From: Aggregatilineales bacterium
GTDB taxonomy: Bacteria > Chloroflexota > Anaerolineae > Aggregatilineales > Ch27
NCBI GenBank assembly: GCA_029976025.1
Contig: JARKNX010000036.1
Location: 70,353-134,352, forward strand
Length of the DNA stretch: 64,000 nt
Reading direction: 5' to 3'
The notes beneath the pieces were generated by a model. It did no database searches. It saw nothing but the letters and a program-made list of their open reading frames with translations, and was not told the origin of the DNA. The translations under genes and the position numbers were made by a program. Below are positions 18,446 through 34,053 of the stretch, one piece after another. Each line of letters opens with the position of its first letter. The stretch's first letter is position 1.

Positions 18446-19597
18446 TCAGAGCAGGCTTCTGTATGCGTTAGTAACGGCGCTCGCCGCTATCTCAATCTGT
18501 TCAATAGTAGTAAAGCGTCCTACACTCGCTCTCACCGTGCGGAACGCGTCTTCGCGCCCCAGACCCATCGCTTCCAGCACATGAGAGGGGGAGATTGCTC
18601 GAGACGTACAGGCAGCCCCCGTTCCTAACATTACCTCAGGGCAATTCAACAACAGGGCATCAGCGTCTACCTCAGGAAAAGTGATGCTACTGGTATTGGG
18701 AAGGCGCTGGTTCAGGCTGCCATTAATTCGAACGTCGGGCAACTCATGCAGTAATCTGCTCTCAAATAGATCGCGCAGAGACGCCAGTCTTGCTGACTCT
18801 TCGATGAGCTGTGCTGAACTGATGTCACAGGCTTCTCCCAAACCAGCTATAGCAGGGACGTTCAGCGTCCCGGGGCGAAGCCCTCTCTCCTGCCCTCCTC
18901 CAACGAAGACAGGCTCAAGCCGAACCAGGTCAGGATCGCCCCGCACATATAAAGCTCCTATCCCTTTCGGGCCATAGAGCTTATGTCCACTCAGCGAGGC
19001 AAAGTCCACTCCCCACTCAGTGACATTCACCGCAATCTTTCCAACGGTTTGTGCTGCGTCACAATGTACAAGTGCCCCGAATTGATGTGCGATCTCCGCG
19101 ATCTCAGCAACTGGCTGGATAGTGCCTACTTCGTTATTCGCCCCCTGGACAGACACCAGAAAGGTTCTATCGTCGATTGCTTTTTCTGCACTATCGAGTC
19201 GAACGCGCCCGTTATTGTCAACTGGCAGGATGATGACCTCAAAACCTTCCTCCTGCAGCTTCTCACACGGAGCCAATACCGACTTGTGTTCAACTGCCGA
19301 CGTGACGATCCGATTTCTAGCGGGGTTCGGCCGCCTGCCTGCAATGCCCAGGATGGCCAGATTATTACTCTCAGTAGCCCCGGCAGTGAAGACGATCTCC
19401 GCTGGACGTGCTCCGATGAGGGCGGCTACCTTCTCTCGCGCTACTTCCACGTGTTCAGCAGCCAGACGCCCCTGAAGGTGAAGACCGTTTGCCGGATTAC
19501 CGTAGATTTCACGGAAAAACGGCAACATGGCTTCCAGCACCCGGGAATCGCAAGGTGTCGTAGCATTGTAATCCAGATAGACCGCCGCTTGCTTCAT
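18446..19597 (-). CDS. sspA: Cysteine desulfurase (NifS/IscS class V aminotransferase), SspA/DndA-like, last gene of the defence operon
   Basis: 383 aa. YLDYNATTP start, PLP-lysine motif SGHKLYGPKGIGALYVR and catalytic-cysteine loop GAACTSRAISPSHVLEAMG. Its start lies 6 nt after the stop of the BrxL-like gene. Confidence 0.9.
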   Translation of the reverse strand: MKQAAVYLDYNATTPCDSRVLEAMLPFFREIYGNPANGLHLQGRLAAEHVEVAREKVAALIGARPAEIVFTAGATESNNLAILGIAGRRPNPARNRIVTSAVEHKSVLAPCEKLQEEGFEVIILPVDNNGRVRLDSAEKAIDDRTFLVSVQGANNEVGTIQPVAEIAEIAHQFGALVHCDAAQTVGKIAVNVTEWGVDFASLSGHKLYGPKGIGALYVRGDPDLVRLEPVFVGGGQERGLRPGTLNVPAIAGLGEACDISSAQLIEESARLASLRDLFESRLLHELPDVRINGSLNQRLPNTSSITFPEVDADALLLNCPEVMLGTGAACTSRAISPSHVLEAMGLGREDAFRTVRASVGRFTTIEQIEIAASAVTNAYRSLL

Positions 19598-21052: not shown

Positions 21053-21058
21053 ACTTTC

Positions 21059-23263
21059 TCACAATTCGAGTCCATCAAGAAGCGAAGTGTCACGCGAGTA
21101 CAACTCTTCGCTTTCAAGCTCCATACTCACGCGAATTTCCACACGCTCTCCACTAGGCCAACGCAGATATGCAGTTGCCTTAGAATGCTTGATTTCTTCT
21201 TTCGATGGCCAGAATCGCAATTCAAGGGTTTTGTTTTGTTTGGTGAGAGCGAGAATCTCCCACCCACATTGGAGCGTCTCCGATGATCGCTTTACACCGA
21301 ATTCTATTTCTACAGAATTCAGCACAATCGGGATTTCATCTGAATTGATGATCTCCACGTGCAACGTCCCCGCCTGACCTGCCCTATTTTTACCAGTGAT
21401 TCGTACTTCCACCATGGGGATACGTTGTTCTTTTGGCATAGCATCACGTACCAGGACAATCCAGGGAACTATCACTTCTTCCGGGAACAGTCCGCCATGT
21501 GTATACCATTCTTGCCCTTGTTTTCCGTCATTCATTCGAAATGCTGCCTCATCCAAAATTACTGCAGCATCTTCTGTAAGGCCATAGCTTTCGCCGTGGA
21601 GATACACCACATTGTCTTCAATAGTGTATCCGGCTGCCGGAAACTCCCGTTTGACTTCGCTAGCAGGTCCTGACGCAGCACGGCCGTGCGTTTCCATCCC
21701 CGCGGGAATTGGAATAGATCGCTGCGATGAAGCGAGCAAGCGCCCGTGATCAGTTGTGAGCACCAGCTTTAGGGGAATAGTGACTGGTAACTGTTCCACG
21801 AGTTCAGCGATCTTCTGGGCCACTGTATTCAACTGGCCTTCAACTTCGTGCTTGAGGGAATCATAGTTGTTACGCGCATGATACGTATGATCAGGCTCCT
21901 GAATACGCCAGATAAATAGATCATCAATATGTGCTGTCTGTAGCAACTCATTCGGAGACTTACGTTCCGAGATGTCCACAGCAAGCGGAGGTAGACCCGC
22001 AGCATGAAGCTCCGGCACACCTTTCAACAGTGCTTCCTTCGCAAATCGGGTAATCGTCGGGATTGGCGCAAAGACGAGGCGATCTTCCTGAATCTCCAGA
22101 CGCCTGGTAGCCACCTGCAAAGCCCGAAGAAACTGTCGAGCGTCCGGAAGATGCAATCCGTCCAAAACGATTAACAGTGTCACGAATTCCGTGTCCTGCC
22201 CCCTCAAGAACCCCGTCTCTCGAAAACTAAGGTGTTCTTTGTCTTTCGAATTCAGCGCTCGCCGGTAGAAGTCCAGATACCATGTGGCAAAACACCTGGC
22301 AAGGTCAACGATACGGTGTCGAACCTGAATATTACGGTCATCGCCCTGCTGCCACTCGCGAAGTGGCAGATACTCATTCCTGAACCAGGCCAGGACCTCC
22401 GCGGGCGCTTCCGGCACATCTGAAGGTTCTGGTGGTCGCAACAATCCGCGCAGTTGTTCCCATTGTGACCCTGAGACACCGGGAGCCAGCGTTGCAAGGT
22501 ATCCTTCGGTCAACTGCTGAGGGTTAACCGTAAAATAGTCAAAGGCTACTCCAACCGCGATCTGCTTAAGCTCTGGAGATAGAGGAAGTGCCATTAATTG
22601 CTCAAAGAAATCCCCGTGTGTGTCCACCATAGAGTGCCGCCAAGCGCTTAAGGCTCTGTCACTCCAAGGGGCTGGCACTTTCACCGGAAACTCCTCTAGC
22701 CCATCGATTCGTTGATCTGCCTTGATACCGAGCCAGATGTCAAGCATACTCTGTGCCGACTCAGAATCTGTAGCTTCGTATAAGGGCTTGAGACTCCTCG
22801 ATGCATCTCGCTGCCATCCCTCTGATACCGCCCGGAGAAGCGGTTGCTCCACCTGGTCAGGGGTTTGTAGGTCAAGCCAGAGTAGCCACTCAGCGGCGTG
22901 CTCCAGCGAAGGAGTGCCTGCCCATCGAAAATCCGGATGCAAGGCTTGCAGTATCCCTGGTGCAGAGATAGGACGGCGCAGACTGAAGTATTTACTCTCC
23001 AGGCGGGAGTAAAGGGCGTCAGCCTGATCCTCACTGAGATCAGGAATAGCTGTTAGTATCTCTCTTCGAGGTGAAGGCGCATCCTGAAACCGAAGATGGC
23101 GGCCCCGAAGGAACGTCCTGGCCCACTCACACAGGCGCTGACCACGGATGAACCACCTTCCCTCGCCGTCAACAATCCTGAGAAAACCTACTTCATCCTC
23201 AATCAGTACGTATCCGCCGGGAATCAGAGCATCTCCGTGATAATCGAGCAGGAAGTTCTCCAT
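21059..23263 (-). CDS. pglZ: PglZ domain-containing protein (alkaline-phosphatase-fold)
   Basis: 734 aa. The central region has VTLLIVLDGLHLPDARQF and LKLVLTTDHGRLLAS, the D...T/DHG metal-ligand pattern of PglZ domains. It is flanked by BrxC-like and BrxL-like genes, as in BREX loci. Confidence 0.75.
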   Translation of the reverse strand: MENFLLDYHGDALIPGGYVLIEDEVGFLRIVDGEGRWFIRGQRLCEWARTFLRGRHLRFQDAPSPRREILTAIPDLSEDQADALYSRLESKYFSLRRPISAPGILQALHPDFRWAGTPSLEHAAEWLLWLDLQTPDQVEQPLLRAVSEGWQRDASRSLKPLYEATDSESAQSMLDIWLGIKADQRIDGLEEFPVKVPAPWSDRALSAWRHSMVDTHGDFFEQLMALPLSPELKQIAVGVAFDYFTVNPQQLTEGYLATLAPGVSGSQWEQLRGLLRPPEPSDVPEAPAEVLAWFRNEYLPLREWQQGDDRNIQVRHRIVDLARCFATWYLDFYRRALNSKDKEHLSFRETGFLRGQDTEFVTLLIVLDGLHLPDARQFLRALQVATRRLEIQEDRLVFAPIPTITRFAKEALLKGVPELHAAGLPPLAVDISERKSPNELLQTAHIDDLFIWRIQEPDHTYHARNNYDSLKHEVEGQLNTVAQKIAELVEQLPVTIPLKLVLTTDHGRLLASSQRSIPIPAGMETHGRAASGPASEVKREFPAAGYTIEDNVVYLHGESYGLTEDAAVILDEAAFRMNDGKQGQEWYTHGGLFPEEVIVPWIVLVRDAMPKEQRIPMVEVRITGKNRAGQAGTLHVEIINSDEIPIVLNSVEIEFGVKRSSETLQCGWEILALTKQNKTLELRFWPSKEEIKHSKATAYLRWPSGERVEIRVSMELESEELYSRDTSLLDGLEL

Positions 23264-23266
23264 CGC

Positions 23267-26200
23267 CTAGCTTGCAGCCTCTTTATCCCGCATTTCTTCG
23301 GACATGAGCCGCTGGAGCAAATCCAGACAATCCTGTCGCCTGTCTGTTGATCCCAGGGCCCGGAATAATTCCTCGATCCGGGCGATCTGATCTTGGTCCA
23401 GACATTCCTGCACTCTCGTATGCAGCGCTTTCAGTCGGTCTCGATAGTCCAAAGGTAAGAAGGCTGGCGGACGTTCTAGCTTTCGCTTCAGTTCGCCCGG
23501 CGATGCTTTCCTCCCAAATTCAGATTCACGCTCCTCAAGCCACTGAATAGCGTCTTGCTGCCTGCTTTTCAGTTGATTTGCCTTCTGCTCACGAACCCGA
23601 TCCAACTCCTTCAGATGGTGCCGGCTCAACATCTGCCCATAATGGCTGGACATCTGAGCCAGCACCTTCTCCGCGGCCTCGACATCCGCTGGTGTGTCGG
23701 GGATATGCTTTGCTCCTTCTAGTTCTCTTACGAACTTGCGAAGAGCATCCAAATACTCCAGCGCTTCCTCTAGTTGGTTTTGGAACTCTGTGTCCTGGTA
23801 TCGACTTTGCTGACGCAGGATGGTATCTCGCTCCTCCGATATAGCGGCCAGATCCAGGTTATACGCGCGATCGTTAATGCTCTCCGCATACGCCTCTAAA
23901 ACCCGAATCTCGTCCTGAACCTCACGGAGTTTAGTTTCCTGCAACGATTTAATATCGGGAGATATCACCTCGATCTCCTGCAGGCGGGTCTCATAGCGGC
24001 GAAGCTCTGCCAGGCCGGCTCTGGTATTCATCACATCGATTTCATTGCGGATGAACGCCTCGCTCTCCTTGGCCTTCAGAATATCTGCCCGCTTATTCAG
24101 CTTACCCTGGATCTCGGCGACCTCCGCCGCGAGTGAAGTCAAGCCCTGTTGCTCCAATTGCTTCTTCAGGCCCGCCAGATCCCGGCGGAAGCTACCTGCC
24201 TGATCGCTGTCGGTCAGTCCGTCTACCCTCAAGAAAAGTCTGCGGAGGGCCTGTTCAAGCGCCGTGTTCAGGTGTATCTCGATCTCGTTGGGGGCCGACT
24301 GAGTGACATGCACCTGGTTTCCGACGGGTAGATTCCGCAGCTTGTCACGCAGCTTGAGCAGGTTGGCGATGTCCCGCTCGCTGTCAAGTTGTCGCAAGAC
24401 ATTGCCGGCCTCACGGTCATATTCTTGTGCTTCTCTGAGAGCCTTCTCCAATCTGTCAACAGCTCTTGATGCCCGTTGGACAATATCTGGAGATTGGTTG
24501 TCAAGGGCGGCGAACTCTTCTAGATTCTGTAGAGCCGCCTGGGCTTCTTCCTGAGTGAACAACTCATCCTTGTTGATTTTGCGGATGATCTCCTGTGCTT
24601 CGCGTTGGGCGGCGTCAGGATCGCGCCGTGTGATTGTCAAAGGCGTGCGGCAAGCCCAGTCGAGAAAACCCCGGGATGTTTTAGTCGTCTCGATCTGCCG
24701 CTCCAATTGGTTAAGTGTTATATACTGTCCCCAGGCGCTGAGCCGCAACTCGTTCCGGAAATAGCCAATCCAGCCACATAGCAGCAAGGTTGCCGTGTTG
24801 TAGTCAAAGCCATAGGGAGGATTGAGCAAGGTCGGAACAATCACCGCGACCCTGCCGTCCTTCACACCAGGTTCGAAAGTGCGGTTGAGCAGCTTCCAGG
24901 CTTCCGAGAGTTTCATCGATGTTGGCTGTTGCAGAGCGTAGTCTCGCACCGACAACAGACCCCACTTCCGGGGAGGGGAGAGATACTTCTCGCACAAATC
25001 TCTGGATACAGAATCCATGCCATTAAAGGCCCCCTCTACACGGTCGTAGATGAGATTCTTGGCTACCGTTTTGACTGCGGTACGCAGCCTATTTTGTCCC
25101 CTGACCTGGACAGCGGAATACTGTGTGAAGAACTCAGGCGGTCGTATCGGGTACGCATACTCATACAACGCCTTAAGCACATGTTTAATAGGCCGCTCTG
25201 ACAGAGTAGCGACCACCGTTCGATATGCCTTTGGCACAACGAATTCGGAAGAGTCGCGACGTATCTCCCATACATTTTCATAGTCACCACGAAGTCGCTT
25301 TAATGCCTTGTGGAGCGCTATCCGAGTTCGCTGAACCTCGAGCTCATACGTCTGTTGCCCAACTTCCTTTATTAGATCTTTGTCCCTGCCAACTGCCTCA
25401 AGCGCCTGATAACGCCGATACAGCTCCTTCATCTCCGGTACGGTATCCCTCGGAATCATTACGATAACTGGCAGCGGCGGATCCTGAAGCCCCACCGCAG
25501 CTTCCAGAATATCCTGAGCCTGTTCGCGCAAATCTTCGCGAGCAGCATCATCGAGAGTCACCAGCCACAACACTGCGCCGCGGATTCCATCTGATAGCCC
25601 GCTATCAGGGGATAAGCTGAATAGTGGTAGCACAGAAATGGGTGCGTCGGGGATGATTATGTGCTCCTCAGCCGCCCAATCTGATGCATGTCCCCACTCA
25701 ATTTCCAGCGGAATACTGCCAAATTTGGGATCCTCTCGGAGCCATCTGTTGAGTCCGTTGATATAGGCGCCCGGATCAAATTCTGTCGCCTCAAGCTGTT
25801 CCTGAACCGCTTTTTCAAGCCGCCGGGGATCAGCTCCAACCGGGAGAAAACCGTTGATACGTTGAATAGAGTCATAACGCGTGACTCCATTCCGACTCAG
25901 GTCCTTCAATACCTCCCGGATCGTCTTCTCATCTGAACCGCACATGGATGCCAGCAGCTCAGTCTGCTTCTCCCCTGCGGCTGAAAGACGGGCGATCTCC
26001 TGAAGGAGGAGGGCCTTCAACACGGCCCGCTGTATTTCAGTAACATTTTCGCCAAAAATCTGTTCGAGGTCGCGCTGGGCTTTGTCGTATGCAGTGTATA
26101 GGTTTCCGGCGTCTCCCGCCAGACGACGCTCGAAATAGTCAACCAGTGCGACAGGTAGAACCCAGTTGACACGGCCATCCCTTTGCGCCGGTTCATTAGC

Positions 26201-27538
26201 GCGAGCATCAAGCTGGTCGCGCACAAACCCGAGTGCTGTACGCGCTGTGCCAATATCCTCCCCCTGCTGCACTTTGATCTGGCACAACAGCGCTGTGGTC
26301 ATAGGATGAAGTGGGAAACATCCTTCGGTTACGACCTGTCGGAACTTCTGATAGCTCCAATCCAGTTCCGCATCGTAGTATTTCTGGAAGGCGCCCCACG
26401 TATGCTCTGTAGCTTGAAATATTGCCCCCTTGATACTGAAATCCCGGAGGAATTCTTCCCACGCCTCTTGATCTTGCTTGAGATAAGAATCGAGCACGCC
26501 TTCCATCAGAGAATAGAGCGCCCACCGCCTCGGTATGCGCTGGAGCTCCTTCCTCAAGTTCTGGAGGCTCTGCCCACCATGTAACGTCTGGTCCGCGACT
26601 AGCTCAGGATCGTGCTGAGCAAAAGCCAGGAAGGCAGCCTTTGTTCTGTGATCTTCCACCCCTTGTAATAAGTCCTGCAGCTCGCCGACTGCCCTGCTAC
26701 GCGCATATCGCTGCACGTACATGCTGAACTCATCAAACAGGATAAGAAGGCCAGCCAGCGGCTTCTTCTCCCCGCAGAATTCCCCCACCACCCAGCGGAC
26801 GGCCTCGCGCAAGCTGGCATTCCCTTCAGCGCTGGGCCGGACACCATGACTCAGGTGTTCGAATAACTCTACGTACAACTCATAGGCGCGGTATTGCTCA
26901 ACTTCATCGAGCAATGCGGGAACATCCATAGCATGGGACTGCAGAAACGCATCCGCTTTGATGACCATCTCTGGTGTCAGGTTACGCAAATAATTCAACG
27001 CGGTATCGACCCAGAAAGGCAGCTCTACATCACGAGTTGGGGCGTGCTCCGAAAGCGCCTTTTTAAGCGCGAGGAAGAACTGCTCACGAAGCGACCGTGG
27101 GCTATCCCCACGCAGCCGCACCACAAGGTATTCCCCATGTTCTTTCTTGAATTCCCGGTAGCCTTCTGCTTTTGCTGGATCTGATACAGCCTGACCAATT
27201 CGGTCCAGAACTATCTTCACTTCAGGCGAGTCATACGGCCTGGAGAAATAGTTTGCCAGCACTACCGCCAGGTGACTCTTGCCATAGCCGTAGTTGGCAA
27301 TAGCAAGCATGCGGTTTTCGAACCGGTCGAACTTGAGCGCCTTGAGCAGTTCGTCGAGCAGGCCCAGAGCAGCAATAGCCTGTGTCTGAGCACCCCGACT
27401 GCCCGGTGTTGTCACAGAGAAAATATACGCCTGCAACAGAGCCAGATTAGAATCCCGATCGTCGAAATTGCTGATCTGAACATCGCTGCGAAACTGTCCC
27501 TTGGTATCGAGCTGAACAATTTCCCCCAGAGTAAACAT
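23267..27538 (-). CDS. brxC: BrxC/PglY-like giant P-loop ATPase with a long C-terminal coiled-coil
   Basis: 1423 aa. The N-terminus is FRSDVQISNFDD...LLQAYIFS. Walker A is ANYGYGKSHLAVVLANYF and Walker B is LLILFDEFSMYV. There is an FPLHPMT motif. The last ~420 aa are E/R/L/Q-rich heptad-like sequence. RBS is GAGGTGGGGGA. Confidence 0.7.
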   Translation of the reverse strand: MFTLGEIVQLDTKGQFRSDVQISNFDDRDSNLALLQAYIFSVTTPGSRGAQTQAIAALGLLDELLKALKFDRFENRMLAIANYGYGKSHLAVVLANYFSRPYDSPEVKIVLDRIGQAVSDPAKAEGYREFKKEHGEYLVVRLRGDSPRSLREQFFLALKKALSEHAPTRDVELPFWVDTALNYLRNLTPEMVIKADAFLQSHAMDVPALLDEVEQYRAYELYVELFEHLSHGVRPSAEGNASLREAVRWVVGEFCGEKKPLAGLLILFDEFSMYVQRYARSRAVGELQDLLQGVEDHRTKAAFLAFAQHDPELVADQTLHGGQSLQNLRKELQRIPRRWALYSLMEGVLDSYLKQDQEAWEEFLRDFSIKGAIFQATEHTWGAFQKYYDAELDWSYQKFRQVVTEGCFPLHPMTTALLCQIKVQQGEDIGTARTALGFVRDQLDARANEPAQRDGRVNWVLPVALVDYFERRLAGDAGNLYTAYDKAQRDLEQIFGENVTEIQRAVLKALLLQEIARLSAAGEKQTELLASMCGSDEKTIREVLKDLSRNGVTRYDSIQRINGFLPVGADPRRLEKAVQEQLEATEFDPGAYINGLNRWLREDPKFGSIPLEIEWGHASDWAAEEHIIIPDAPISVLPLFSLSPDSGLSDGIRGAVLWLVTLDDAAREDLREQAQDILEAAVGLQDPPLPVIVMIPRDTVPEMKELYRRYQALEAVGRDKDLIKEVGQQTYELEVQRTRIALHKALKRLRGDYENVWEIRRDSSEFVVPKAYRTVVATLSERPIKHVLKALYEYAYPIRPPEFFTQYSAVQVRGQNRLRTAVKTVAKNLIYDRVEGAFNGMDSVSRDLCEKYLSPPRKWGLLSVRDYALQQPTSMKLSEAWKLLNRTFEPGVKDGRVAVIVPTLLNPPYGFDYNTATLLLCGWIGYFRNELRLSAWGQYITLNQLERQIETTKTSRGFLDWACRTPLTITRRDPDAAQREAQEIIRKINKDELFTQEEAQAALQNLEEFAALDNQSPDIVQRASRAVDRLEKALREAQEYDREAGNVLRQLDSERDIANLLKLRDKLRNLPVGNQVHVTQSAPNEIEIHLNTALEQALRRLFLRVDGLTDSDQAGSFRRDLAGLKKQLEQQGLTSLAAEVAEIQGKLNKRADILKAKESEAFIRNEIDVMNTRAGLAELRRYETRLQEIEVISPDIKSLQETKLREVQDEIRVLEAYAESINDRAYNLDLAAISEERDTILRQQSRYQDTEFQNQLEEALEYLDALRKFVRELEGAKHIPDTPADVEAAEKVLAQMSSHYGQMLSRHHLKELDRVREQKANQLKSRQQDAIQWLEERESEFGRKASPGELKRKLERPPAFLPLDYRDRLKALHTRVQECLDQDQIARIEELFRALGSTDRRQDCLDLLQRLMSEEMRDKEAAS

Positions 27539-27552
27539 GATCCCCCACCTCG

Positions 27553-28035
27553 CTAATCGGAATAAGACCCAACCAGGCGGCTATCATGTTCCAGTGCCGC
27601 CCACAGCCTGTCATCAGGCAGTAGCTCTGTCGCGGTCTCTGGAACAGCCACTACCAGAGCACGGGAACGATACGGCATCCCGTCAAAAAGGCCCCGCCAT
27701 ACCTCCTGGCGCTCATCACGCTTCAGCCCTGCCAGCAACAGGTCTACGTTGAAGATAAGGGCGCAATCCGTCTTGCCGCTGCTACTGGCTATAGCGTCTA
27801 ACGCCTCCAACACCTTTTCAGATGTCAGCCGGACAAACCGCGTCCCGGCAGGGAGTCGTTCCAGGATGACATCCCGCACATCGATCGCCTCGATCCCCAG
27901 TCGCGCCGCAACATCCAACTCGCGGCCAACATGTCCAGGGGGCATCCGCCAGACCCCGACACGGGTCCGCAGCGTCGGTCGACGCAGCAGTACGATAAGC
28001 TCCCTGACGGGCTTGAGAGGATCAGGCTGTTCCAT
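27553..28035 (-). CDS. Unknown 160-aa protein (possibly a BREX accessory, BrxB/BrxF-like position)
   Basis: ATG at 28035 overlaps the upstream gene by 14 nt, and the stop lies 12 nt before the brxC-like RBS/start. There is no canonical Walker A (IASSSGKTD lacks the first glycine). The motif CALIFNVDLLLAGLKRDERQEVWRGLF was not recognised. Confidence 0.5.
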   Translation of the reverse strand: MEQPDPLKPVRELIVLLRRPTLRTRVGVWRMPPGHVGRELDVAARLGIEAIDVRDVILERLPAGTRFVRLTSEKVLEALDAIASSSGKTDCALIFNVDLLLAGLKRDERQEVWRGLFDGMPYRSRALVVAVPETATELLPDDRLWAALEHDSRLVGSYSD

Positions 28036-28876
28036 AGAGCTTCTCTAACAAGGGTCCCGTTTCCTGCCGCAGCAGCACGACCTGCTCCGGCGGAGCAACC
28101 CGATAGACATCAACATAGTGTTCACCCTGAAGCACACGCAGTACTTCGTTAAACTCCCGACGCCCCAACAAGAATAACGGAGCAAACCCGCCTGGCTCCT
28201 GCAACGAGTCCAGGGTCACAGTCAGGCGTCCTTCGAACTGCGCTGCCCAATAATCGAGGAGCGCGTACGCGACGGCCCATACAGGCGGGGGCACAGGCTC
28301 CATAACCCGGTAACGCTCGCCATCCGCACTCAGAATACTCAGCTTGCCAAGCGCGTCTGACTTAGTGTACGTTCCCAGGAACACGGTCGCCGTGCTGCGC
28401 ACCGTTCGTTCGGCAAGGCTGCGGCCTTCAGTTTCCTCTATAAATTCACCCAGATGCTGACTGATCTCGCCTGCTGTGAACTCTCGCCCCACGTAAAAAT
28501 AGGTGTTCACCAGATCGTGCCAGAAGGCCGGTCCGGGGCCATGTGGCGCGCTAAGATAATAGTGCATCAGCCACTGTGTGCCGTGCTGTTCCAGGAGGGG
28601 ATCATGGGCCAGACTCATTCGGCCAAAATCAGTGAGCTGGCGATCAAAATCAAGCAGCCCCGCACCCATTGCGTAACGAGGCATGGACTCGGCATATATG
28701 GAGCCGAGAGACGTATTCTGTCTGATCGTCTCCTTATTCAGCTCTCCCTCACTACTGGTGCTGATCTGTTCTGCAAGCTCCAGTACCTGTATCACAGCGG
28801 GCCGAATTAGCGAGAATGTGCGGTGAAAGGAAAATCCGGGTCTACCCTCCTGTTTGGAGTTCTTTCTCTGTTCCAA
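28022..28876 (-). CDS. Divergent DUF4007-like protein (second SspB-like paralog)
   Basis: 284 aa, TTG start behind AGGGGAAGAG. FSFHRTFSLIRP parallels FGGHEKFVFRQGW of the first DUF4007 gene, and HGTQWLMHYYLSAPHGP parallels IGTLWLLHWQLVSGP. Lengths are similar. Confidence 0.55.
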   Translation of the reverse strand: MEQRKNSKQEGRPGFSFHRTFSLIRPAVIQVLELAEQISTSSEGELNKETIRQNTSLGSIYAESMPRYAMGAGLLDFDRQLTDFGRMSLAHDPLLEQHGTQWLMHYYLSAPHGPGPAFWHDLVNTYFYVGREFTAGEISQHLGEFIEETEGRSLAERTVRSTATVFLGTYTKSDALGKLSILSADGERYRVMEPVPPPVWAVAYALLDYWAAQFEGRLTVTLDSLQEPGGFAPLFLLGRREFNEVLRVLQGEHYVDVYRVAPPEQVVLLRQETGPLLEKLYGTA

Positions 28877-28891
28877 TTCTCTTCCCCTAAC

Positions 28892-29731
28892 TTAGAGATG
28901 ACATATCAGGCAACTATCATCGTCGTCCATTGCATCTAGTTCTAGACCCAAAGTCTGAATAAGCGTCTGCTGTGGTTTATGCCTGCTCGACGATCGTAGC
29001 TGGAATTCTTGATGTTCTTTTTTCACTTGCTCGATCCTAAGGGGTTCTTGCAACTCCTGCAGACTTTCTCTTGAAACCCAGGTATATCGCTCACCAGTTT
29101 CGGGATCTTCTCGTTCGTACGCCATAGCCTGCATGTAGAGATCAGGATGATTTTCTAACAGGCCAATCCATTCAATACGTTGCTGAAAGAAGCAGAAATA
29201 GCAGCCAGAGCGAGATCGCCAGTTATAGTATTCTGGTAGACCAAGTCCGCTCTCATCCAGAATCCTTAGCACATCTTCCTTGGCGATTCCGGCTTCAACA
29301 AATGGATAGCGCGGTACTATGTTTGGTTTGCTTGAGATATATCCTTTACGATTAGGTTCGTCAGCTCGTATCCCGATGTAGCTATAACAGAGATCCTCCC
29401 CTATATATTTCTCAAAAGGCTTGATCTTCAGATATTCGGTGCACCATCTAACTTTCGGAGATGGTAGAAATCCCCGGCGCATTTGCAAAAGTTCGTCGAA
29501 CCCTTTTCCTTCATGTTTGAGATAGACAATGGGCTTATTGAGGTAGGCTTCAAGACGATTCAAATATTCGTAGGTCTCCGCGAGCTCCTTCTCTGTATCG
29601 CAGAAGACGTATTCCAGATCAGTAATCTTGTCGCGCAGGTAGATTGCTAAGGCGGTGCTATCCTTGCCGCCAGAGAGGGAAACGATGTGTCGGGCAGGCT
29701 TGCTGCCGGCGGGATGCTGAGATGGGGACAT
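28892..29731 (-). CDS. sspD: PAPS reductase / PP-loop ATP pyrophosphatase family protein (SspD / BrxP-like)
   Basis: 279 aa. PP-loop VSLSGGKDSTALAIYL. Cysteine motifs are RWCTEYLK, SGCYFCFF and the C-terminal CLICHL. Sampled lines are markedly AT-richer than the flanking genes. Confidence 0.9.
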   Translation of the reverse strand: MSPSQHPAGSKPARHIVSLSGGKDSTALAIYLRDKITDLEYVFCDTEKELAETYEYLNRLEAYLNKPIVYLKHEGKGFDELLQMRRGFLPSPKVRWCTEYLKIKPFEKYIGEDLCYSYIGIRADEPNRKGYISSKPNIVPRYPFVEAGIAKEDVLRILDESGLGLPEYYNWRSRSGCYFCFFQQRIEWIGLLENHPDLYMQAMAYEREDPETGERYTWVSRESLQELQEPLRIEQVKKEHQEFQLRSSSRHKPQQTLIQTLGLELDAMDDDDSCLICHL

Positions 29732-29768
29732 TGAGTTAGCTTCCTATAAATCTGGCTATATGGACACT

Positions 29769-32700
29769 TTACTTTCTGCGGAGTAACGCACGTAAGGCAG
29801 CACGAACTACCCGCTGATTCTTATTGTAGTATGGTTGAAGGATATCCGCCACCTGCGAGCTCAAGAGATCGGTAAGAGCCTGTTCTTCGGATGTCAACAG
29901 GGCGTCACCGTCGGCACTCAGGTGTTCAGACTGGAACAGCCTCCCAAGCGTTTGAGCATATGCGGGGAACCGATCCACGTCGGTATCGGCCCACGTGCGC
30001 AATGGTCGGGAAGCCGCGAAAGCCAGCACGCTATCGACGGAGCCTTGCAGGTCAGGGGCGCCCACAGCCCGCTGCAACATCGGCAGGAGTCTCGGGTGGG
30101 TGACATAGTCGGCCATGACCTCGGCTGCGGCTATAAGCTGCCGCCATCCCGCCTCCTCGCCCGGCAGGCCACAAGCGGCCAGCAGCTCATCCCTCGCCCA
30201 GGCGCGCAATCGGGGCGTTGCCTCGCTCAGGGTTTGCAAGGCATCGTTGAGACGGTCAAAGAACAGAGTCGTCTGTTCGGGTTCTGCCTCCTGATCCCCG
30301 AAGGGCGGCAAGTTCAGCGCCGCTGGCAAATCGTTGAATAACAGTTGCTCCGGTGAATGCGCACGCTCCATCGCCGTACGTACGCGCAGGGCGTGGTCAG
30401 GCAGGCGCTGTGTCCGCCAGGCATATTCTGGTAGCGCTTTCACCTGCCGCAAAAGCTCACGCACAACTGGCATTACAGCAACCTCAACGCCCAGATTGTG
30501 CGCGAAACGCTCCAGGACGGTGCGACGAGGTCCGACCAGGCGACAACCAGCCAGCCCGAAAAGATCCGGGCGCCGCAACAACACCTCCCAGTCAGCGATG
30601 CCTGGCTCCGGCAGCAGCGATCCCTCACGGTAGAACGTCATCTCAGCCTGGTGTACCAGATAGAACGCACAGAGCAAGACGGGCAGGACACCGTCGCTTA
30701 TGCCGTAAGGCGGCGCCTTCAGCCGCCTGAATAGCTCTTCCGTCGAACGTATCTCAACAGGGGCGGCGAAGATATAGTCAGCAATTGCATCCCATACCGG
30801 GCCTAAGCCCAATGAGTCTGCTGCAGCGGGCGCGAGGAAACGCCATTCGCCAGAGGCATCCTGTCGGTGGAGACCTCCCGCATGGAGCAGGCTCTCATAC
30901 ATACTCCGTTCCGGGGGGTAACCTTCAATGCCCAGGGTCGGCTCGGACGATCGGCTGAGCATGGCCTCGATCAAATTACGGCGAGCAGCAGCAGCCTGCG
31001 AGGAAAGGGCGCGGCGGTTGAGCAGTTCGTTCCACACCCGGGGGGTCGCCTTATAGATGACATCGCATACTGTGGATAGATAGGAAGTCAGATTCCGCCC
31101 CACCTGGCCTGTGACGTCCACACCACAATGATACCAGCGGCAGGCAGCCGATCGGGTCAACTGGTGCGGGCCGAAAGCCTCATCCAGGTGTCGCCGGATC
31201 AGTGTCTCCACCGCGTCAATGCGCGCCCGCCACTCCTGGCGTGCAACAGTATCATCGCGCAGCTCTGGCGTCTGCTCATAGACCCACTGAAGGGCATCCA
31301 GCTCATGTAACAACTCGGTGAGTCGCGGGATCGGGTGTGCGATGCCGATCACGATATCTGAGCGGGCCTGTAGCGAGGCCTCCCTCGCCCATTCGGCGAG
31401 CTGGTATTCATCCGCTGTAGTGAGAGGCAGGCAAAGGACGACGACACCGCTCGCCTGTTCCGGCTGAGTGAGCAGTTCATGCCGGTCTGTACGGACGTCA
31501 GCGTAACGCACATCGAAGAAGCGGGTCGTGCCACTCTGGTAACTGTGCCGCCGGGCTACAAGTGGACGCGGCGGCAGATATCTGTGCAGCACCTCTACTG
31601 AGCTGGTAATTCCGCCAAGGTGTTGGTGAGCTTGCTGAAGGCGCTCTTCAATATCAACATCGCTGCCCTGCCAGATAACGTAGGTATGGTTGAACCGCCG
31701 GTAAACCAGCATCGAACGCTTGCAGAGCGCTTCGAGCGCCTGGCGGATCTCTTTCTTGCGATAGCTCGATCCGCCTAAAGCTACCAGAAGCGCTTCCTCC
31801 GTTGCCTGAAGATGGCTGGTCTCTCCCAGCCAGTTGAGAAGGCCAACGCTCTTAAATATGGCGGCTTCCAGAGGCGTGAGGAGCGTGGTGCTGTTAAGGC
31901 GATCGAGCGTTTCGGCGAGGATCCGCCCGCGTCCAGAAGCGTAGAGCCGTCCCTGGAAGTTGGCTGCCACGTAGTCGAACAAATCAGCGAGGCCGACGAA
32001 ATCAGGTGTCTGATGCTGCTGAATAAACTCCTGAAAGCCCTTCGGTTCATAGGAGGTGAGATAGGCAAAGACCGAGCGCTCATTCTGAGCCAGACGCCGG
32101 AAGATCAACGGCAGCGCGACCAGGGTGGTCGGGTGCAGCGGGTAGGTGCGTTCGGCTAAATCGATAAACTCGCCATCGTGCATTCCAGGCGGGCGCCACC
32201 CGCTTGTTGCGGTCAGTTGAGCGTAATTGCGGAGCAGGGGTGTCACATCCTGCGGCATCTCGCCCTTATGAGTGATTGCGCGCGCCAGCAAATGAAGCTG
32301 TTGAACAGGTGGTTCCTGGAAAGGGATATCCTCAAATCGGCCCTGAACTTTGGCCCACTCCTGCTGTGTCAGGCTGTCAAGGAACACTGCATAACGTTCA
32401 AACGCCTGATGCAGTACTCCGATTATGACAAGCGGGTGTTCCGTGCTACGGTTGGCGAATTCAGCAAGCTCCTGAAGGAAATAGACGTCTGCCTCATCAG
32501 GATGTGCGGCCGCGAACTCGAGGGGTTTGCCCAGTTCATCGACGACCAGCAGGATGCCGCGATATTCTTCTTCGGCAATAACTTCCAGCAGGCGGGCTAA
32601 TCTATGTAAAAATGCCCTGCTTGTCTCTGGAGCAGCTTTCGCCATTACCTCGGCCAGTTTCTTAGCAGGCACCCCCTCGGCCTCCAGACGGCGCACCGCG

Positions 32701-33128
32701 TGGTGCAGCCCATCGGCCAGACACTGCTGTAGTGATGCGCGATAACCCGTTATTGGGATGGGGAAGAAGCCCCGGCTTCCATCCAGTTGGGTTTCTACGA
32801 CTTCGAGCGCAAGCAAAGGATCAGCCTGCTGCAGTGTATGTATCGTTGTAGCGTGATCTGCTTGGCCCCGCCCCAGTAGATTCAGCAAAAACAAGCTGAA
32901 GTACGATTTGCCGGATCCGTATGGACCGGTCAGCGTCCAGGCGCGGGTCTTGCGCCTGTTGTCTAGCCCCGACAGGATACGCCCCAGGCTGAGAAGAGCC
33001 TGGGAGGTGAGCATATAACCTTGAATAAGCCCGGCAGACTGCAGATCGCTATCAAGTCGGATAGCCCGTATAGCGGTTTGCCGGATCTCCACCAGCGAAT
33101 CCAGGGAAGTAGAAGAGGTTTCATTCAT
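29769..33128 (-). CDS. sspC: SspC-like giant P-loop ATPase (BrxC/DUF499-type paralog)
   Basis: About 1119 aa from the ATG at 33128. That ATG forms an ATGAATGA overlap with the upstream DUF4007 stop, whereas the ORF track starts at 33155. Walker A is LTGPYGSGKSYFSLFLLNLL and Walker B is ILLVVDELGKPLEF. There is a YPLHPTT motif. The gene sits between DUF4007 and PAPS reductase, as in sspB-sspC-sspD. Confidence 0.75.
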   Translation of the reverse strand: MNETSSTSLDSLVEIRQTAIRAIRLDSDLQSAGLIQGYMLTSQALLSLGRILSGLDNRRKTRAWTLTGPYGSGKSYFSLFLLNLLGRGQADHATTIHTLQQADPLLALEVVETQLDGSRGFFPIPITGYRASLQQCLADGLHHAVRRLEAEGVPAKKLAEVMAKAAPETSRAFLHRLARLLEVIAEEEYRGILLVVDELGKPLEFAAAHPDEADVYFLQELAEFANRSTEHPLVIIGVLHQAFERYAVFLDSLTQQEWAKVQGRFEDIPFQEPPVQQLHLLARAITHKGEMPQDVTPLLRNYAQLTATSGWRPPGMHDGEFIDLAERTYPLHPTTLVALPLIFRRLAQNERSVFAYLTSYEPKGFQEFIQQHQTPDFVGLADLFDYVAANFQGRLYASGRGRILAETLDRLNSTTLLTPLEAAIFKSVGLLNWLGETSHLQATEEALLVALGGSSYRKKEIRQALEALCKRSMLVYRRFNHTYVIWQGSDVDIEERLQQAHQHLGGITSSVEVLHRYLPPRPLVARRHSYQSGTTRFFDVRYADVRTDRHELLTQPEQASGVVVLCLPLTTADEYQLAEWAREASLQARSDIVIGIAHPIPRLTELLHELDALQWVYEQTPELRDDTVARQEWRARIDAVETLIRRHLDEAFGPHQLTRSAACRWYHCGVDVTGQVGRNLTSYLSTVCDVIYKATPRVWNELLNRRALSSQAAAARRNLIEAMLSRSSEPTLGIEGYPPERSMYESLLHAGGLHRQDASGEWRFLAPAAADSLGLGPVWDAIADYIFAAPVEIRSTEELFRRLKAPPYGISDGVLPVLLCAFYLVHQAEMTFYREGSLLPEPGIADWEVLLRRPDLFGLAGCRLVGPRRTVLERFAHNLGVEVAVMPVVRELLRQVKALPEYAWRTQRLPDHALRVRTAMERAHSPEQLLFNDLPAALNLPPFGDQEAEPEQTTLFFDRLNDALQTLSEATPRLRAWARDELLAACGLPGEEAGWRQLIAAAEVMADYVTHPRLLPMLQRAVGAPDLQGSVDSVLAFAASRPLRTWADTDVDRFPAYAQTLGRLFQSEHLSADGDALLTSEEQALTDLLSSQVADILQPYYNKNQRVVRAALRALLRRK

Positions 33129-34053
33129 AGTAGGATCGCAACAAAGCCAGCGCATGCTGTGGCGCGTCGGAGAGATGGAAGCTATGCAAATAGAGTTGTC
33201 GGAGTCCTGCTGTCTCCTGCAAGCGGATGCTTCCTGACGTCAGCTCCTCTAGATCTTCCAGATAGGCCACCACGCTATTTTCATCGAGCTTAAAAGCCTG
33301 TCCCGGGCTTCCGGGATGGTAAATGCACTCATCAACCGCGACGGTGCGCCTATGCCGGGCAATATCCGACAGAAAGTATATCAGAGCGTAGCCGAAAATA
33401 TGCACCGGCAAAAGAGGTTTGGGGCCAATTGTGAACGTGAAAAGGCGATCTTCTCTCGTCGGTCGTATCAGCCCCAGATCAACTAATGGACAGTCCAAAC
33501 TATCGTCGAAGAGTCCGGTACCTCTGGTTTTGACAGTAACATAGGTCCGAAGGCACACATCCACCTCTCGATCAACCATCTGGGGGGTTGTCCGAACGCC
33601 TTCCAGCGCCAGTTGCCGACTGACGAACTCGGTTAACCGTTGCCTGGAGAATTCGCGGTCGAGAAACATGTTGAAGACCAGCCACCATACAAAACTATAT
33701 GGGCCCGAAACAAGTTGCCAGTGGAGCAACCACAAGGTTCCAATATCCTCCAGATACGGGTCGCCCTGCTCATTACCAAACAAAAGATTCCCCAAATGAG
33801 TAGGCTGCAACGCAGTTCTAGGTCCGGCGGGCGCGATTTCAAGGATGCCAGTAGCCAGACACCAATGGCGTATAGACCTAACCATGTTCTTGCCAACACC
33901 CAGACTTACCAGAGCATCATCACGAGTGAATATAGCTGGATCCTGTGCAACGAGATCCACTCCTTTTTTCAGCCAGCCCTGGCGGAACACGAATTTCTCA
34001 TGTCCTCCGAAAACCGAACGTTTGTGGTCCGCGGCTACAGGGAATATCGTCAC
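33121..34053 (-). CDS. sspB: DUF4007 family protein (SspB-like), first gene of the defence operon
   Basis: 310 aa, GTG start with AGGAG 8 nt upstream. The N-terminal FGGHEKFVFRQGWLKKGVDLV matches the F.GHE.F..R.GWLKK signature of DUF4007/SspB. Confidence 0.75.
   Translation of the reverse strand: MTIFPVAADHKRSVFGGHEKFVFRQGWLKKGVDLVAQDPAIFTRDDALVSLGVGKNMVRSIRHWCLATGILEIAPAGPRTALQPTHLGNLLFGNEQGDPYLEDIGTLWLLHWQLVSGPYSFVWWLVFNMFLDREFSRQRLTEFVSRQLALEGVRTTPQMVDREVDVCLRTYVTVKTRGTGLFDDSLDCPLVDLGLIRPTREDRLFTFTIGPKPLLPVHIFGYALIYFLSDIARHRRTVAVDECIYHPGSPGQAFKLDENSVVAYLEDLEELTSGSIRLQETAGLRQLYLHSFHLSDAPQHALALLRSYYE

What the first reader, a model, noticed from the sequence alone, without database searches (positions are those of the whole stretch)
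23267..34053. Two tandem DUF4007 + giant ATPase pairs in the same operon (internal module duplication)
The operon contains two pairs with the same layout.

The two DUF4007 proteins share FGGHEKFVFRQGW vs FSFHRTFSLIRP, and IGTLWLLHWQLVSGP vs HGTQWLMHYYLSAPHGP.

The two giant ATPases share an N-terminal IRLDSDLQ..LIQGYMLT vs FRSDVQIS..LLQAYIFS. Their Walker A motifs are GPYGSGKSYF vs NYGYGKSHL and their Walker B motifs are LLVVDELG vs LILFDEFS. Both carry a YPLHPTT vs FPLHPMT motif.

One pair is followed by the PAPS reductase and the other by PglZ/BrxL. This suggests the modification and exclusion arms each use their own DUF4007-ATPase recognition unit, a symmetry I have not seen described for Ssp or BREX.
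Basis: seen in the sequence. Interest (0 to 1): 0.7.

Follow-up and report, generated by a model that had tools for sequence, protein, structure and literature searches.

The report
Ssp writer fused to BREX-like core
This is a conserved nine-gene anti-phage operon in which a DNA-sulfur-marking module (SspABCD) is joined to a BREX-like exclusion module, each with its own distantly related DNA-binding protein and large ATPase; it is a little-studied variant of known systems, not a new kind.

Summary
The 284-aa protein (28876..28022) is a full-length DUF4007 paralog of SspB: Pfam gives 58 bits against a cutoff of 27, and the family-profile comparison gives E 9e-28. The 1423-aa protein (27538..23267) is a true homolog of SspC over about 800 columns (profile E 1.8e-26). 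Its model's best PDB matches are BREX BrxC structures.

"Internal duplication" is misleading. The paralogs share only 17-22% identity. The second set therefore reads as a BREX core: BrxA-like DUF4007, BrxB-like protein, BrxC-like ATPase, PglZ, BrxL. It lies between sspBCD and sspA.

The nine-gene order recurs in 34 of 58 related loci; most of the rest are cut short or partly degraded. These span at least six phyla and include Thermomicrobium roseum, Pseudanabaena and Hymenobacter.

The genes co-evolve as two blocks. In Hymenobacter the BREX-like block is swapped independently of the writer block. An Abditibacteriota plasmid couples a related core to a PglX-like methyltransferase instead.

A 2026 paper already lists "sspBCDB-brxCZL" islands but does not analyse them. 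Verdict: a real, new variant of a known kind, of moderate interest.

The parts
33121..34053 (-). SspB: DUF4007 (triple winged-helix) DNA-recognition subunit of the phosphorothioate writer module
   Evidence: Pfam DUF4007 E 2.3e-79; PADLOC SspB 8e-85; solved SspB 6JUF E 3e-40. An AGGAG ribosome-binding site lies upstream of the GTG start.
29769..33155 (-). SspC: ORC/Cdc6-type AAA+ ATPase of the writer module. The start is 33155 or, more likely, the in-frame ATG at 33128 that overlaps the sspB stop codon.
   Evidence: PADLOC SspC E=0 and a BrxC model at 2e-263; Pfam DUF6079 at 4.6e-6. Walker A lysine and Walker B Asp-Glu are invariant in 42/42 orthologs.
28892..29731 (-). SspD: PAPS-reductase-family sulfur-transfer enzyme of the writer module
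   Evidence: PADLOC SspD 5e-110, against only 2e-8 for BrxP; Pfam PAPS_reduct 1.5e-10. It stays with SspB and SspC in the Hymenobacter cassette swaps.
28022..28876 (-). B2: second DUF4007 protein, in the BrxA position of the BREX-like block
   Evidence: Pfam DUF4007 58.2 bits against a cutoff of 27. Profile comparison with the SspB family: 99.8%, E 9.3e-28, 264 columns. Co-varies with Giant and PglZ (r 0.89-0.90) more than with SspB and SspC (0.69).
27553..28035 (-). X160: small P-loop-like protein without a Walker A lysine, in the BrxB position.
   Evidence: No Pfam, PADLOC or NCBIfam hit. AF2 model pLDDT 88. Foldseek finds only weak AAA+/RecA-like matches (E about 1e-3, TM 0.44-0.50). The lysine-equivalent position is not conserved (Arg in 11/43), while G37, E39 and D98 are. 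Present in 48 of the 58 related loci: 42 by phmmer and 6 more by HMM.
23267..27538 (-). Giant: BrxC-like ORC/Cdc6-type AAA+ ATPase. Residues 1 to about 963 are homologous to SspC; residues about 965-1423 form a charged, probably helical C-terminal extension not found in SspC.
   Evidence: Profile comparison with the SspC family: 99.7%, E 1.8e-26, 798 columns. AF2 model of residues 1-1020 has pLDDT 87. The top six Foldseek PDB hits are Acinetobacter BREX BrxC (E 1e-7 to 1.5e-4), followed by ORC. Walker A and B are intact in 51-52 of 52 orthologs.
21059..23263 (-). PglZ: alkaline-phosphatase-fold BREX effector. Its start overlaps the Giant stop codon by 4 nt.
   Evidence: PADLOC PglZ PDLC02549 E 1e-111 over the full length. 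Weak Pfam PglZ match, and NCBIfam BREX PglZ models score below their cutoffs. Profile comparison with E. coli PglZ: E 1e-5.
19604..21052 (-). BrxL: short form, AAA+ ATPase without the Lon protease domain
   Evidence: NCBIfam TIGR02688 481 bits against a cutoff of 329; Pfam BrxL_ATPase 9e-92 and BrxL_N 1e-21. Aligns to residues 16-472 of the 691-aa E. coli BrxL.
18446..19597 (-). SspA: cysteine desulfurase, the sulfur donor. It lies at the far end of the operon but co-evolves with SspB, SspC and SspD.
   Evidence: PADLOC DndA 1e-145 and SspA 1.5e-144; Pfam Aminotran_5 1e-85. Correlation with SspB and SspC is 0.90-0.91, against 0.58-0.67 with the BREX-like block.

Best explanation
The region 18446-34053 is one nine-gene defence operon built from two modules that share ancient ancestry.

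Module 1, the writer, is SspB + SspC + SspD + SspA. A triple winged-helix DNA reader (SspB) and an ORC/Cdc6-type AAA+ ATPase (SspC) position the sulfur-transfer enzymes (SspD and the cysteine desulfurase SspA). These put phosphorothioate marks on host DNA.

Module 2, the excluder, is B2 + X160 + Giant + PglZ + BrxL. It is a BREX core in the canonical brxA-brxB-brxC-...-pglZ-brxL order:
- a DUF4007 protein in the BrxA role;
- a degenerate P-loop protein in the BrxB role, probably bridging the ATPase and PglZ as BrxB does in type 1 BREX;
- a BrxC-like ATPase with an added C-terminal extension that is probably helical;
- PglZ and BrxL as effectors.

Module 2 scans DNA and blocks replication of DNA that lacks the mark.

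The 'two pairs' exist because both Ssp and BREX machines are built on the same ancestral unit of a DNA reader plus a Cdc6-like ATPase. Here a complete copy of each has been joined, rather than one pair serving both jobs as in canonical type 4 BREX.

Shown: the homologies, the fold, the conserved gene order, the two co-evolving blocks and the cassette exchange. Inferred: the biochemical roles, the division of labour, and phosphorothioate as the self mark.
For: - Homology of both pairs.
- Specificity control: Giant against BrxL gives E 0.14.
- Giant fold: the top six Foldseek PDB hits are Acinetobacter BREX BrxC (9zll, 9zdx, 9zn5; probability 1.0), followed by ORC/Cdc6.
- Both ATPases keep their catalytic motifs.
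- X160: confident model with a P-loop-like alpha/beta fold and no conserved Walker A lysine. This is inferred to match the published description of BrxB as an inactive STAND NTPase, and of DUF4007 as the BrxA equivalent (PMC12839542).
- A solved BrxC-BrxB-PglZ complex exists (9zll).
- Gene order: 28 of 58 related genome loci show the identical nine-gene order by phmmer, and 6 more once X160 is found by HMM. Most of the rest are cut short by contig ends. The loci come from Chloroflexota, Armatimonadota, Planctomycetota, Desulfuromonadaceae, Bacteroidota, Deinococcota and Acidobacteriota.
- The operon is also on the Thermomicrobium roseum megaplasmid and on Pseudanabaena galeata pPg_05.
- Gene junctions are tight, from a 14-nt overlap to a 15-nt gap.
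- Co-evolution: two blocks, r 0.86-0.97 and 0.88-0.97 within, 0.57-0.79 between. The blocks remain when Cytophagales are removed.
- Cassette exchange: Hymenobacter L038 against L044 has SspB/C/D/A at 90/90/95/84% identity but B2/Giant/PglZ/BrxL at 44/36/38/66%. L044 against L048 shows the opposite pattern.
- Abditibacteriota plasmid AP024153.1 carries a PglX-like methyltransferase, DUF4007, a 161-aa P-loop protein with intact Walker A and B, a 1371-aa ATPase (Giant profile 1e-22), PglZ and BrxL. Its ATPase is sister to the Giant clade in 159 of 200 bootstraps.
- No SspE or SspFGH gene, and no methyltransferase, is in the operon.
Against: - There is no functional data for any member of this architecture.
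- In type 1 BREX, BrxA, BrxB, BrxC and PglZ are also needed for modification. B2, X160, Giant and PglZ might therefore take part in phosphorothioation too, and the clean writer/excluder split could be wrong.
- X160 has no detectable sequence similarity to E. coli BrxB (E 0.097) or to the Abditibacteriota P-loop protein (E 0.09). Solved BrxB (9nv3) was not among the top 50 Foldseek hits. Its BrxB assignment rests on position, size and fold class only.
- Correlated divergence can be inflated by shared phylogeny and by rate differences.
- The tree is a neighbour-joining tree on sequences about 17-20% identical across clades.
- The PglZ scores far below NCBIfam's BREX-4 cutoff (20 bits against 140).
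Confidence: 0.6

Rival explanations
1. A recent tandem duplication inside the operon. On this view an ancestral sspB-sspC pair was copied in place, and the copy then diverged to serve PglZ and BrxL.
For: The two pairs have the same order (DUF4007, then ATPase) and are homologous over nearly their full lengths. The Giant profile is closer to SspC (E 1.8e-26) than to E. coli type 1 BrxC (E 0.003, single sequence).
Against: - Paralog identity is 17-22%, while orthologs of each protein across phyla average 33-49%. Any duplication therefore long predates the spread of the operon.
- A third gene, X160, sits inside the second 'pair' and has no counterpart in the first.
- The Giant clade groups with the ATPase of a methyltransferase-linked BREX-like system (159 of 200 bootstraps), which has no SspBCD.
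- The block moves independently of sspBCD.
Confidence: 0.1
2. Two independent defence systems that merely lie next to each other in a defence island: an orphan SspABCD modifier and a separate BREX-like system.
For: Defence genes do cluster. In Thermomicrobium roseum the operon lies beside a type III-B CRISPR locus. The two blocks recombine independently.
Against: - The order is identical in 34 loci from several phyla, with tight or overlapping junctions.
- The writer genes flank the BREX-like block, with sspBCD upstream and sspA downstream of brxL. Chance adjacency would not preserve that.
- The BREX-like block has no modification enzyme of its own, and the Ssp block has no SspE or SspFGH effector.
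- When the cassette is swapped in Hymenobacter, the replacement is another B2-to-BrxL block in the same slot.
Confidence: 0.1
3. A split type 4 BREX plus an extra pair. On this view SspD + B2 is BrxP (PAPS reductase fused to DUF4007) split into two genes. SspD-B2-X160-Giant-PglZ-BrxL would then be the type 4 system, and SspB-SspC an accessory second specificity unit.
For: SspD is followed directly by B2 with a 15-nt gap. That is the same domain order as BrxP, which the literature describes as an SspD-SspB fusion (PMC12914056). Outside Cytophagales, SspD's co-variation is intermediate between the blocks.
Against: - In the Hymenobacter swaps the breakpoint falls between SspD and B2: SspD 95% against B2 44% in L038/L044.
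- Over all loci SspD correlates at 0.86-0.87 with SspB and SspC, against 0.59 with B2.
- SspD matches the PADLOC SspD model at 5e-110 against BrxP at 2e-8, and B2 matches only SspB models.
- The SspC of this operon, not Giant, is the protein that matches a PADLOC BrxC model over its full length at 2e-263.
Confidence: 0.12

Closest known systems
Type 4 BREX (brxP-brxC-pglZ-brxL), a phosphorothioate-writing BREX (Goldfarb 2015 from my own knowledge; Yuan et al. 2026, PMC12914056; PMC12839542)
   Same: It has a PAPS-reductase writer, DUF4007, a Cdc6-like BrxC/SspC ATPase, PglZ, the short BrxL and often a cysteine desulfurase. Phosphorothioate takes the place of methylation as the presumed self mark.
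   Different: - Type 4 has one DUF4007, usually fused to the reductase as BrxP, and one ATPase. This operon has two of each, all as separate genes.
- The inactive P-loop domain is usually fused to the N-terminus of PglZ in type 4 (64% of taxa); here it is a free 160-aa protein.
- The PglZ scores 20 bits against a cutoff of 140 on NCBIfam's BREX-4 PglZ model.
- The second ATPase has an added C-terminal extension of about 460 aa.
SspABCD-SspE and SspABCD-SspFGH phosphorothioate defence systems (PMC8092258; Xiong 2020 from my own knowledge)
   Same: The SspA, SspB, SspC and SspD set is complete and matches the curated models strongly. SspB matches the solved SspB structure.
   Different: No SspE or SspFGH effector is present. 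The effector slot is filled by a five-gene BREX-like block that contains paralogs of SspB and SspC.
Type 1 BREX (brxA-brxB-brxC-pglX-pglZ-brxL)
   Same: The gene order of the second block (DNA reader, small inactive P-loop protein, BrxC-like ATPase, PglZ, BrxL) mirrors brxA-brxB-brxC-...-pglZ-brxL. The Giant model's best structural matches are type 1 BrxC.
   Different: - There is no PglX methyltransferase.
- The BrxA position holds a DUF4007 protein rather than DUF1819.
- X160 shows no sequence match to DUF1788 (BrxB).
- BrxL lacks the Lon protease domain.
'sspBCDB-brxCZL type gene islands' noted by Yuan et al. (PMC12914056, Discussion)
   Same: This is the same architecture. The paper reports it in 40 strains, including 7 cyanobacteria and 3 Deinococcota.
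   Different: It is mentioned in one sentence as a co-occurrence. The paper does not analyse the paralogy, the small P-loop gene, the modular co-evolution, the cassette exchange or the methyltransferase-coupled relative.

Membership tests
DUF4007 / SspB family (for B2, 28876..28022) | Match to Pfam PF13182 above the gathering cutoff, and full-length homology to SspB | tested here: met
   58.2 bits against a cutoff of 27, but aligned only over residues 71-271. The family-profile comparison extends this to residues 10-282, at 99.8% and E 9.3e-28.
BrxC / SspC / DUF6079 ORC-Cdc6-type ATPases (for the 1423-aa protein) | Match to a curated family model (Pfam DUF6079, or PADLOC BrxC or SspC) | tested here: not met
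   The window protein has no Pfam, PADLOC or NCBIfam hit at E <= 0.01, and none of 25 family members has a Pfam hit to DUF6079. A few homologs carry a precomputed PF19557 flag.
BrxC / SspC / DUF6079 ORC-Cdc6-type ATPases (for the 1423-aa protein) | Collinear homology beyond the P-loop, intact Walker A and B motifs, and a BrxC-like fold | tested here: met
   Profile comparison with SspC: E 1.8e-26 over 798 columns. Walker A lysine 51/52 and Walker B Asp-Glu 52/52. The top six Foldseek hits are BrxC, followed by ORC.
BrxB / inactive STAND NTPase (for X160) | Compact P-loop NTPase fold with eroded Walker motifs and no C-terminal helical bundle, encoded between the DNA reader and BrxC | tested here: inconclusive
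   The model (pLDDT 88) has five short strands alternating with helices. Its AAA+/RecA-like matches are weak (E about 1e-3, TM 0.44-0.50). The lysine position is not conserved. The gene position fits.
BrxB / inactive STAND NTPase (for X160) | Sequence similarity to DUF1788 (BrxB) | tested here: not met
   No Pfam hit in 10 family members even at E <= 10. Profile comparison with E. coli BrxB gives E 0.097. The literature says BrxB-like domains evolve fast and that the type 4 version is highly divergent.
SspABCD modification module | All four genes present: cysteine desulfurase, DUF4007, SspC ATPase and PAPS-reductase-type SspD | tested here: met
   PADLOC SspA 1.5e-144, SspB 8e-85, SspC E=0, SspD 5e-110.
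SspABCD modification module | Single-strand phosphorothioate marks on host DNA | not testable with these tools
   This needs LC-MS or PT-seq on a host such as Thermomicrobium roseum DSM 5159 or a Hymenobacter strain.
Ssp defence systems (SspABCD-SspE or SspABCD-SspFGH) | A linked SspE or SspFGH effector | tested here: not met
   No PADLOC SspE, SspF, SspG or SspH hit among the nine proteins. The neighbouring genes are ABC transporter components.
Type 4 BREX | BrxP: PAPS reductase fused to DUF4007, matching the BrxP model | tested here: not met
   The reductase is a separate 279-aa protein. It matches the SspD model at 5e-110 and BrxP at only 2e-8.
Type 4 BREX | Type 4 PglZ (NCBIfam NF033445) | tested here: not met
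   20 bits against a cutoff of 140. A PADLOC PglZ model does match over the full length at 1e-111.
Type 4 BREX | Short BrxL (TIGR02688) | tested here: met
   481 bits against a cutoff of 329.
BREX superfamily (general) | A BrxC-type ATPase together with PglZ in one operon | tested here: met
   Giant has a BrxC-like fold and PglZ follows it directly with a 4-nt overlap.

The most novel reading that the evidence does not exclude
This operon may be a natural 'separation of function' version of BREX. Writing the self mark and excluding unmarked DNA would be done by two physically distinct, paralogous scanning complexes: SspB-SspC with SspD and SspA, and B2-X160-Giant with PglZ and BrxL. Each would have its own DNA reader and its own Cdc6-like motor. 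The exclusion cassette would be free to swap and diversify against phages while the writer, and hence the host's mark, stays fixed. If so, the system would allow genetic dissection of a question that is tangled in type 1 BREX, where the same BrxA, BrxB, BrxC and PglZ proteins are needed for both methylation and restriction.
Probability: 0.4. Interest if true: 0.7.

Novelty: new variant of a known kind. Interest (0 to 1): 0.5.

Why it matters
How BREX stops phages is still unresolved. One reason is that in the well-studied type 1 systems most proteins are needed both for marking host DNA and for exclusion.

This architecture appears to give each job its own DNA reader and its own ATPase. It occurs in culturable organisms: Thermomicrobium roseum DSM 5159, Anaerolinea thermolimosa, Levilinea saccharolytica, Hymenobacter species and Pseudanabaena galeata.

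It also shows natural cassette swaps of the exclusion block against a constant writer. That is a ready-made experiment on which parts set specificity.

The family of the second ATPase is sizeable: 232 clusters at 50% identity with E <= 1e-30. The Pfam, NCBIfam and PADLOC models tested here do not recognise it. Annotation pipelines that rely on such models are therefore likely to report these loci as SspBCD plus stray PglZ and BrxL, and to miss three of the five genes of the BREX-like core.

Tried and rejected
- Curated models (Pfam, PADLOC, NCBIfam) on the 1423-aa and 160-aa proteins found nothing.
- A profile of the giant family against PDB sequences gave only coiled-coil noise, E > 0.1. SspC against PDB sequences also gave nothing.
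- X160 showed no sequence signal against E. coli BrxB, the Abditibacteriota 161-aa P-loop protein, Giant, SspC or PglZ. An apparent by-eye P-loop alignment between X160 and the Abditibacteriota protein was not reproduced by mafft or hmmsearch, so I do not rely on it.
A shallower alignment of 27 close relatives was used instead.
- Pfam scans of the long variants of the giant protein (1.7-1.85 kb of amino acids) found no extra domain.
- The first tree attempt timed out. The second used a distance formula that broke at high divergence and was discarded in favour.
- An exact-protein contig look-up to identify the source organism found nothing. The cluster look-up gave no names.
- ORFs upstream of sspB (34.3-38.1 kb) have no Pfam hits and no counterparts in the related loci, so they were not counted as part of the system.

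Full report
**What is in the window**

Nine tightly packed genes lie on the minus strand between 34053 and 18446:
- SspB, a DUF4007 protein (310 aa)
- SspC (1128 aa, or 1119 aa from the alternative start)
- SspD, a PAPS-reductase-family protein (279 aa)
- a second DUF4007 protein, here called B2 (284 aa)
- a 160-aa protein, here called X160
- a 1423-aa protein, here called Giant
- PglZ (734 aa)
- BrxL (482 aa)
- SspA, a cysteine desulfurase (383 aa)

Junctions range from a 14-nt overlap to a 15-nt gap. Curated models identify SspA, SspB, SspC, SspD, PglZ and BrxL strongly. The flanks encode ABC-transporter components. The ORFs just upstream of sspB have no family hits and no counterparts in related loci. 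The system therefore spans about 15.6 kb.

**Checking the observation**

B2 is a genuine DUF4007 protein.
- Pfam scores it at 58 bits against a cutoff of 27, although only over residues 71-271.
- BLASTP against SspB gives E 4e-7.
- I built family alignments from orthologs in 58 related genome loci. Comparing the B2 and SspB profiles gives probability 99.8%, E 9.3e-28, over 264 columns that cover both proteins end to end.

Giant is invisible to Pfam, PADLOC and NCBIfam. It is only marginally similar to SspC by BLASTP (E 0.02-0.04).
- The family profiles nonetheless align at 99.7%, E 1.8e-26, over 798 columns, Giant 2-963 against SspC 16-871.
- The alignment runs well past the P-loop, through the shared PLHP and PPYG motifs.
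- As a control, the Giant profile against BrxL, the operon's other AAA+ protein, gives E 0.14.
- An AlphaFold model of Giant 1-1020 (pLDDT 87) has Acinetobacter BREX BrxC as its six best PDB matches (9zll, 9zdx, 9zn5; E 1e-7 to 1.5e-4, probability 1.0). ORC/Cdc6 proteins follow.
- Both ATPase families keep the Walker A lysine and the Walker B Asp-Glu in 42/42 and 51-52/52 members.

X160 lies between B2 and Giant, so the second 'pair' is a triplet.
- X160 has no family hit.
- It is conserved in 48 of the 58 related loci: 42 by phmmer, and 6 Cytophagales loci by HMM.
- Its model is confident (pLDDT 88). It resembles the alpha/beta core of AAA+/RecA-type P-loop NTPases only weakly (Foldseek E about 1e-3, TM 0.44-0.50).
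- The residue where a Walker A lysine would sit is not conserved (Arg in 11 of 43), while G37, E39 and D98 are.

A recent comparative study describes BrxB as an inactive STAND NTPase. It describes DUF4007 as the structural equivalent of BrxA, and BrxC and SspC as ORC/Cdc6-type ATPases (PMC12839542). A solved complex shows BrxB together with BrxC and PglZ (9zll).

On that background, B2-X160-Giant-PglZ-BrxL reads in the same order as brxA-brxB-brxC-...-pglZ-brxL in type 1 BREX.

I could not show sequence similarity between X160 and BrxB. Solved BrxB was not in the top Foldseek list. That assignment therefore rests on inference from position, size and fold class.

**Is it a conserved system or an accident?**

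Of 58 related loci from species-representative genomes, 28 show the identical nine-gene order by phmmer. Six more do once X160 is found by HMM. Most of the rest are cut short by contig ends, and a few are degraded or variant.

The hosts span Anaerolineae and other Chloroflexota, Chthonomonadaceae, Phycisphaerae, Desulfuromonadaceae, Hymenobacter, Fibrella and Adhaeribacter, Deinococcota and Pyrinomonadaceae.

Annotated examples are the Thermomicrobium roseum DSM 5159 megaplasmid, where RefSeq already labels two 'DUF4007 family' proteins, and Pseudanabaena galeata plasmid pPg_05.

The Giant family comprises 232 clusters at 50% identity with E <= 1e-30 among 1.84 billion representatives.

**Duplication or fusion?**

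Three results argue for two modules with ancient common ancestry that were joined, not for a local duplication.

1. Divergence. The paralogs are 17-22% identical. Orthologs of each protein average 33-49% across phyla.

2. Co-evolution. Pairwise identities across 31 complete loci fall into two blocks.
   - {SspB, SspC, SspD, SspA}: r 0.86-0.97 within the block.
   - {B2, X160, Giant, PglZ, BrxL}: r 0.88-0.97 within the block.
   - Between blocks: r 0.57-0.79.
   - BrxL evolves as slowly as SspD and SspA yet tracks the second block, so this is not just an effect of evolutionary rate.
   - The blocks persist when Cytophagales are removed (Spearman 0.74-0.78 and 0.79-0.89 within, 0.21-0.37 between). 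SspD is then intermediate.
   - SspA lies downstream of BrxL yet belongs to the writer block.

3. Cassette exchange in Hymenobacter.
   - L038 against L044: 90/90/95/84% identity for SspB/SspC/SspD/SspA, but 44/36/38/66% for B2/Giant/PglZ/BrxL.
   - L044 against L048 and L039 against L041 show the reverse pattern.
   - The breakpoints fall between SspD and B2, and between BrxL and SspA.

An Abditibacteriota plasmid adds a further clue. It carries a PglX-like methyltransferase, DUF4007, a 161-aa P-loop protein with intact Walker A and B motifs, a 1371-aa ATPase, PglZ and BrxL. In a neighbour-joining tree of the N-terminal ATPase region:
- the Giant clade is recovered in 200 of 200 bootstraps;
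- the SspC clade in 191 of 200;
- the Abditibacteriota ATPase joins Giant in 159 of 200.

The tree is rough at this divergence. The same kind of core can evidently pair with a methyltransferase or with SspABCD.

**Likely mechanism**

Shown: the homologies, the folds, the gene order, the two co-evolving blocks and the cassette exchange.

Inferred:
- SspA, SspB, SspC and SspD write phosphorothioate marks.
- B2, X160 and Giant form a second scanning complex that engages PglZ and BrxL to exclude unmarked DNA.
- X160 probably bridges the ATPase and PglZ.

The main uncertainty is whether the second block also contributes to modification, as the BrxA, BrxB, BrxC and PglZ proteins do in type 1 BREX. 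In a canonical type 4 system, PglZ and BrxL were dispensable for phosphorothioation (PMC12914056).

**Comparison with known systems and novelty**

The system is closest to type 4 BREX and to Ssp. It fails several type 4 membership features: there is no BrxP fusion, its PglZ scores far below the type 4 cutoff, and it has two ATPases. It also lacks the Ssp effectors.

Yuan et al. list 'sspBCDB-brxCZL type gene islands' in 40 strains in one sentence. The large BREX survey does not mention a doubled arrangement. The architecture has therefore been sighted but not analysed.

I rate it a new variant of a known kind, of moderate interest.

Noticed in passing
L058 (Pyrinomonadaceae MAG JBPCKD010000004.1) 9005-23134; also L037 8946-14027: In L058 the B2-Giant pair occurs without PglZ and BrxL. 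It is followed instead by an unknown 357-aa protein, a weakly DrmE-like protein, a NERD-nuclease/UvrD-type helicase and a 1166-aa DEAD-type helicase. This suggests the unit of DNA reader plus ATPase can be wired to other effectors. In L037 the pair sits next to transporter genes and may be a remnant.
   Followed up: partly
L062 (Abditibacteriota plasmid AP024153.1) 1733-14383: This is a methyltransferase-coupled cousin of the BREX-like block: an Eco57I/MmeI-type N6-adenine methyltransferase, DUF4007, a 161-aa P-loop protein with intact Walker A (GPPLSGKSS) and Walker B (VVDEFD) motifs, a 1371-aa ATPase, PglZ and BrxL. The Pfam scan matched no BREX-specific model apart from DUF4007 on the small reader protein. 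It may be an undescribed BREX subtype.
   Followed up: partly
L038-L048 (Hymenobacter, Fibrella, Adhaeribacter loci): At least three deeply diverged versions of the B2-to-BrxL cassette (about 35-45% identity in Giant and PglZ) are combined with closely related writer genes (up to 95% identity). This is the pattern expected from cassette replacement or diversifying selection on the exclusion arm.
   Followed up: yes
window 23267-24640 (Giant residues about 965-1423): Giant has a C-terminal extension of about 460 aa that is rich in charged residues, probably helical or coiled-coil, and has no counterpart in SspC. Some orthologs are 1.6-1.9 kb of amino acids long with no recognisable added domain.
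   Followed up: partly
L061 (Pseudanabaena galeata pPg_05) 6596-9048: In this copy of the operon a MazF/PemK toxin-antitoxin pair is inserted between sspC and sspD, and a Uma2-family endonuclease between sspD and B2. A 'DNA phosphorothioation-associated putative methyltransferase' lies just upstream.
   Followed up: no
L059 (Thermomicrobium roseum megaplasmid NC_011961.1) 20973-28638: The operon lies directly beside a complete type III-B CRISPR (Cmr1-6, Cas10, CARF) locus, and a NERD-domain gene is nearby. This is a defence-island setting.
   Followed up: no
L007 5765-9955; L018 2628-7348; L056 9605-11504; L042 4231-9971: Several loci carry broken copies: Giant split in two (L007) or in four pieces (L056), SspC split (L018), and SspC truncated with SspD, B2 and X160 replaced by other ORFs (L042). 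These suggest decay or assembly errors in some lineages.
   Followed up: no
window 34054-37790: About 3.7 kb upstream of sspB at about 60% GC has long overlapping ORFs on both strands. None has a Pfam hit and none has a homolog in the related loci. It is unclear which, if any, are real genes.
   Followed up: partly
window 19604-21052: BrxL here is the short 482-aa form. It aligns to residues 16-472 of the 691-aa E. coli BrxL, so it lacks the C-terminal Lon-protease-like domain.
   Followed up: partly
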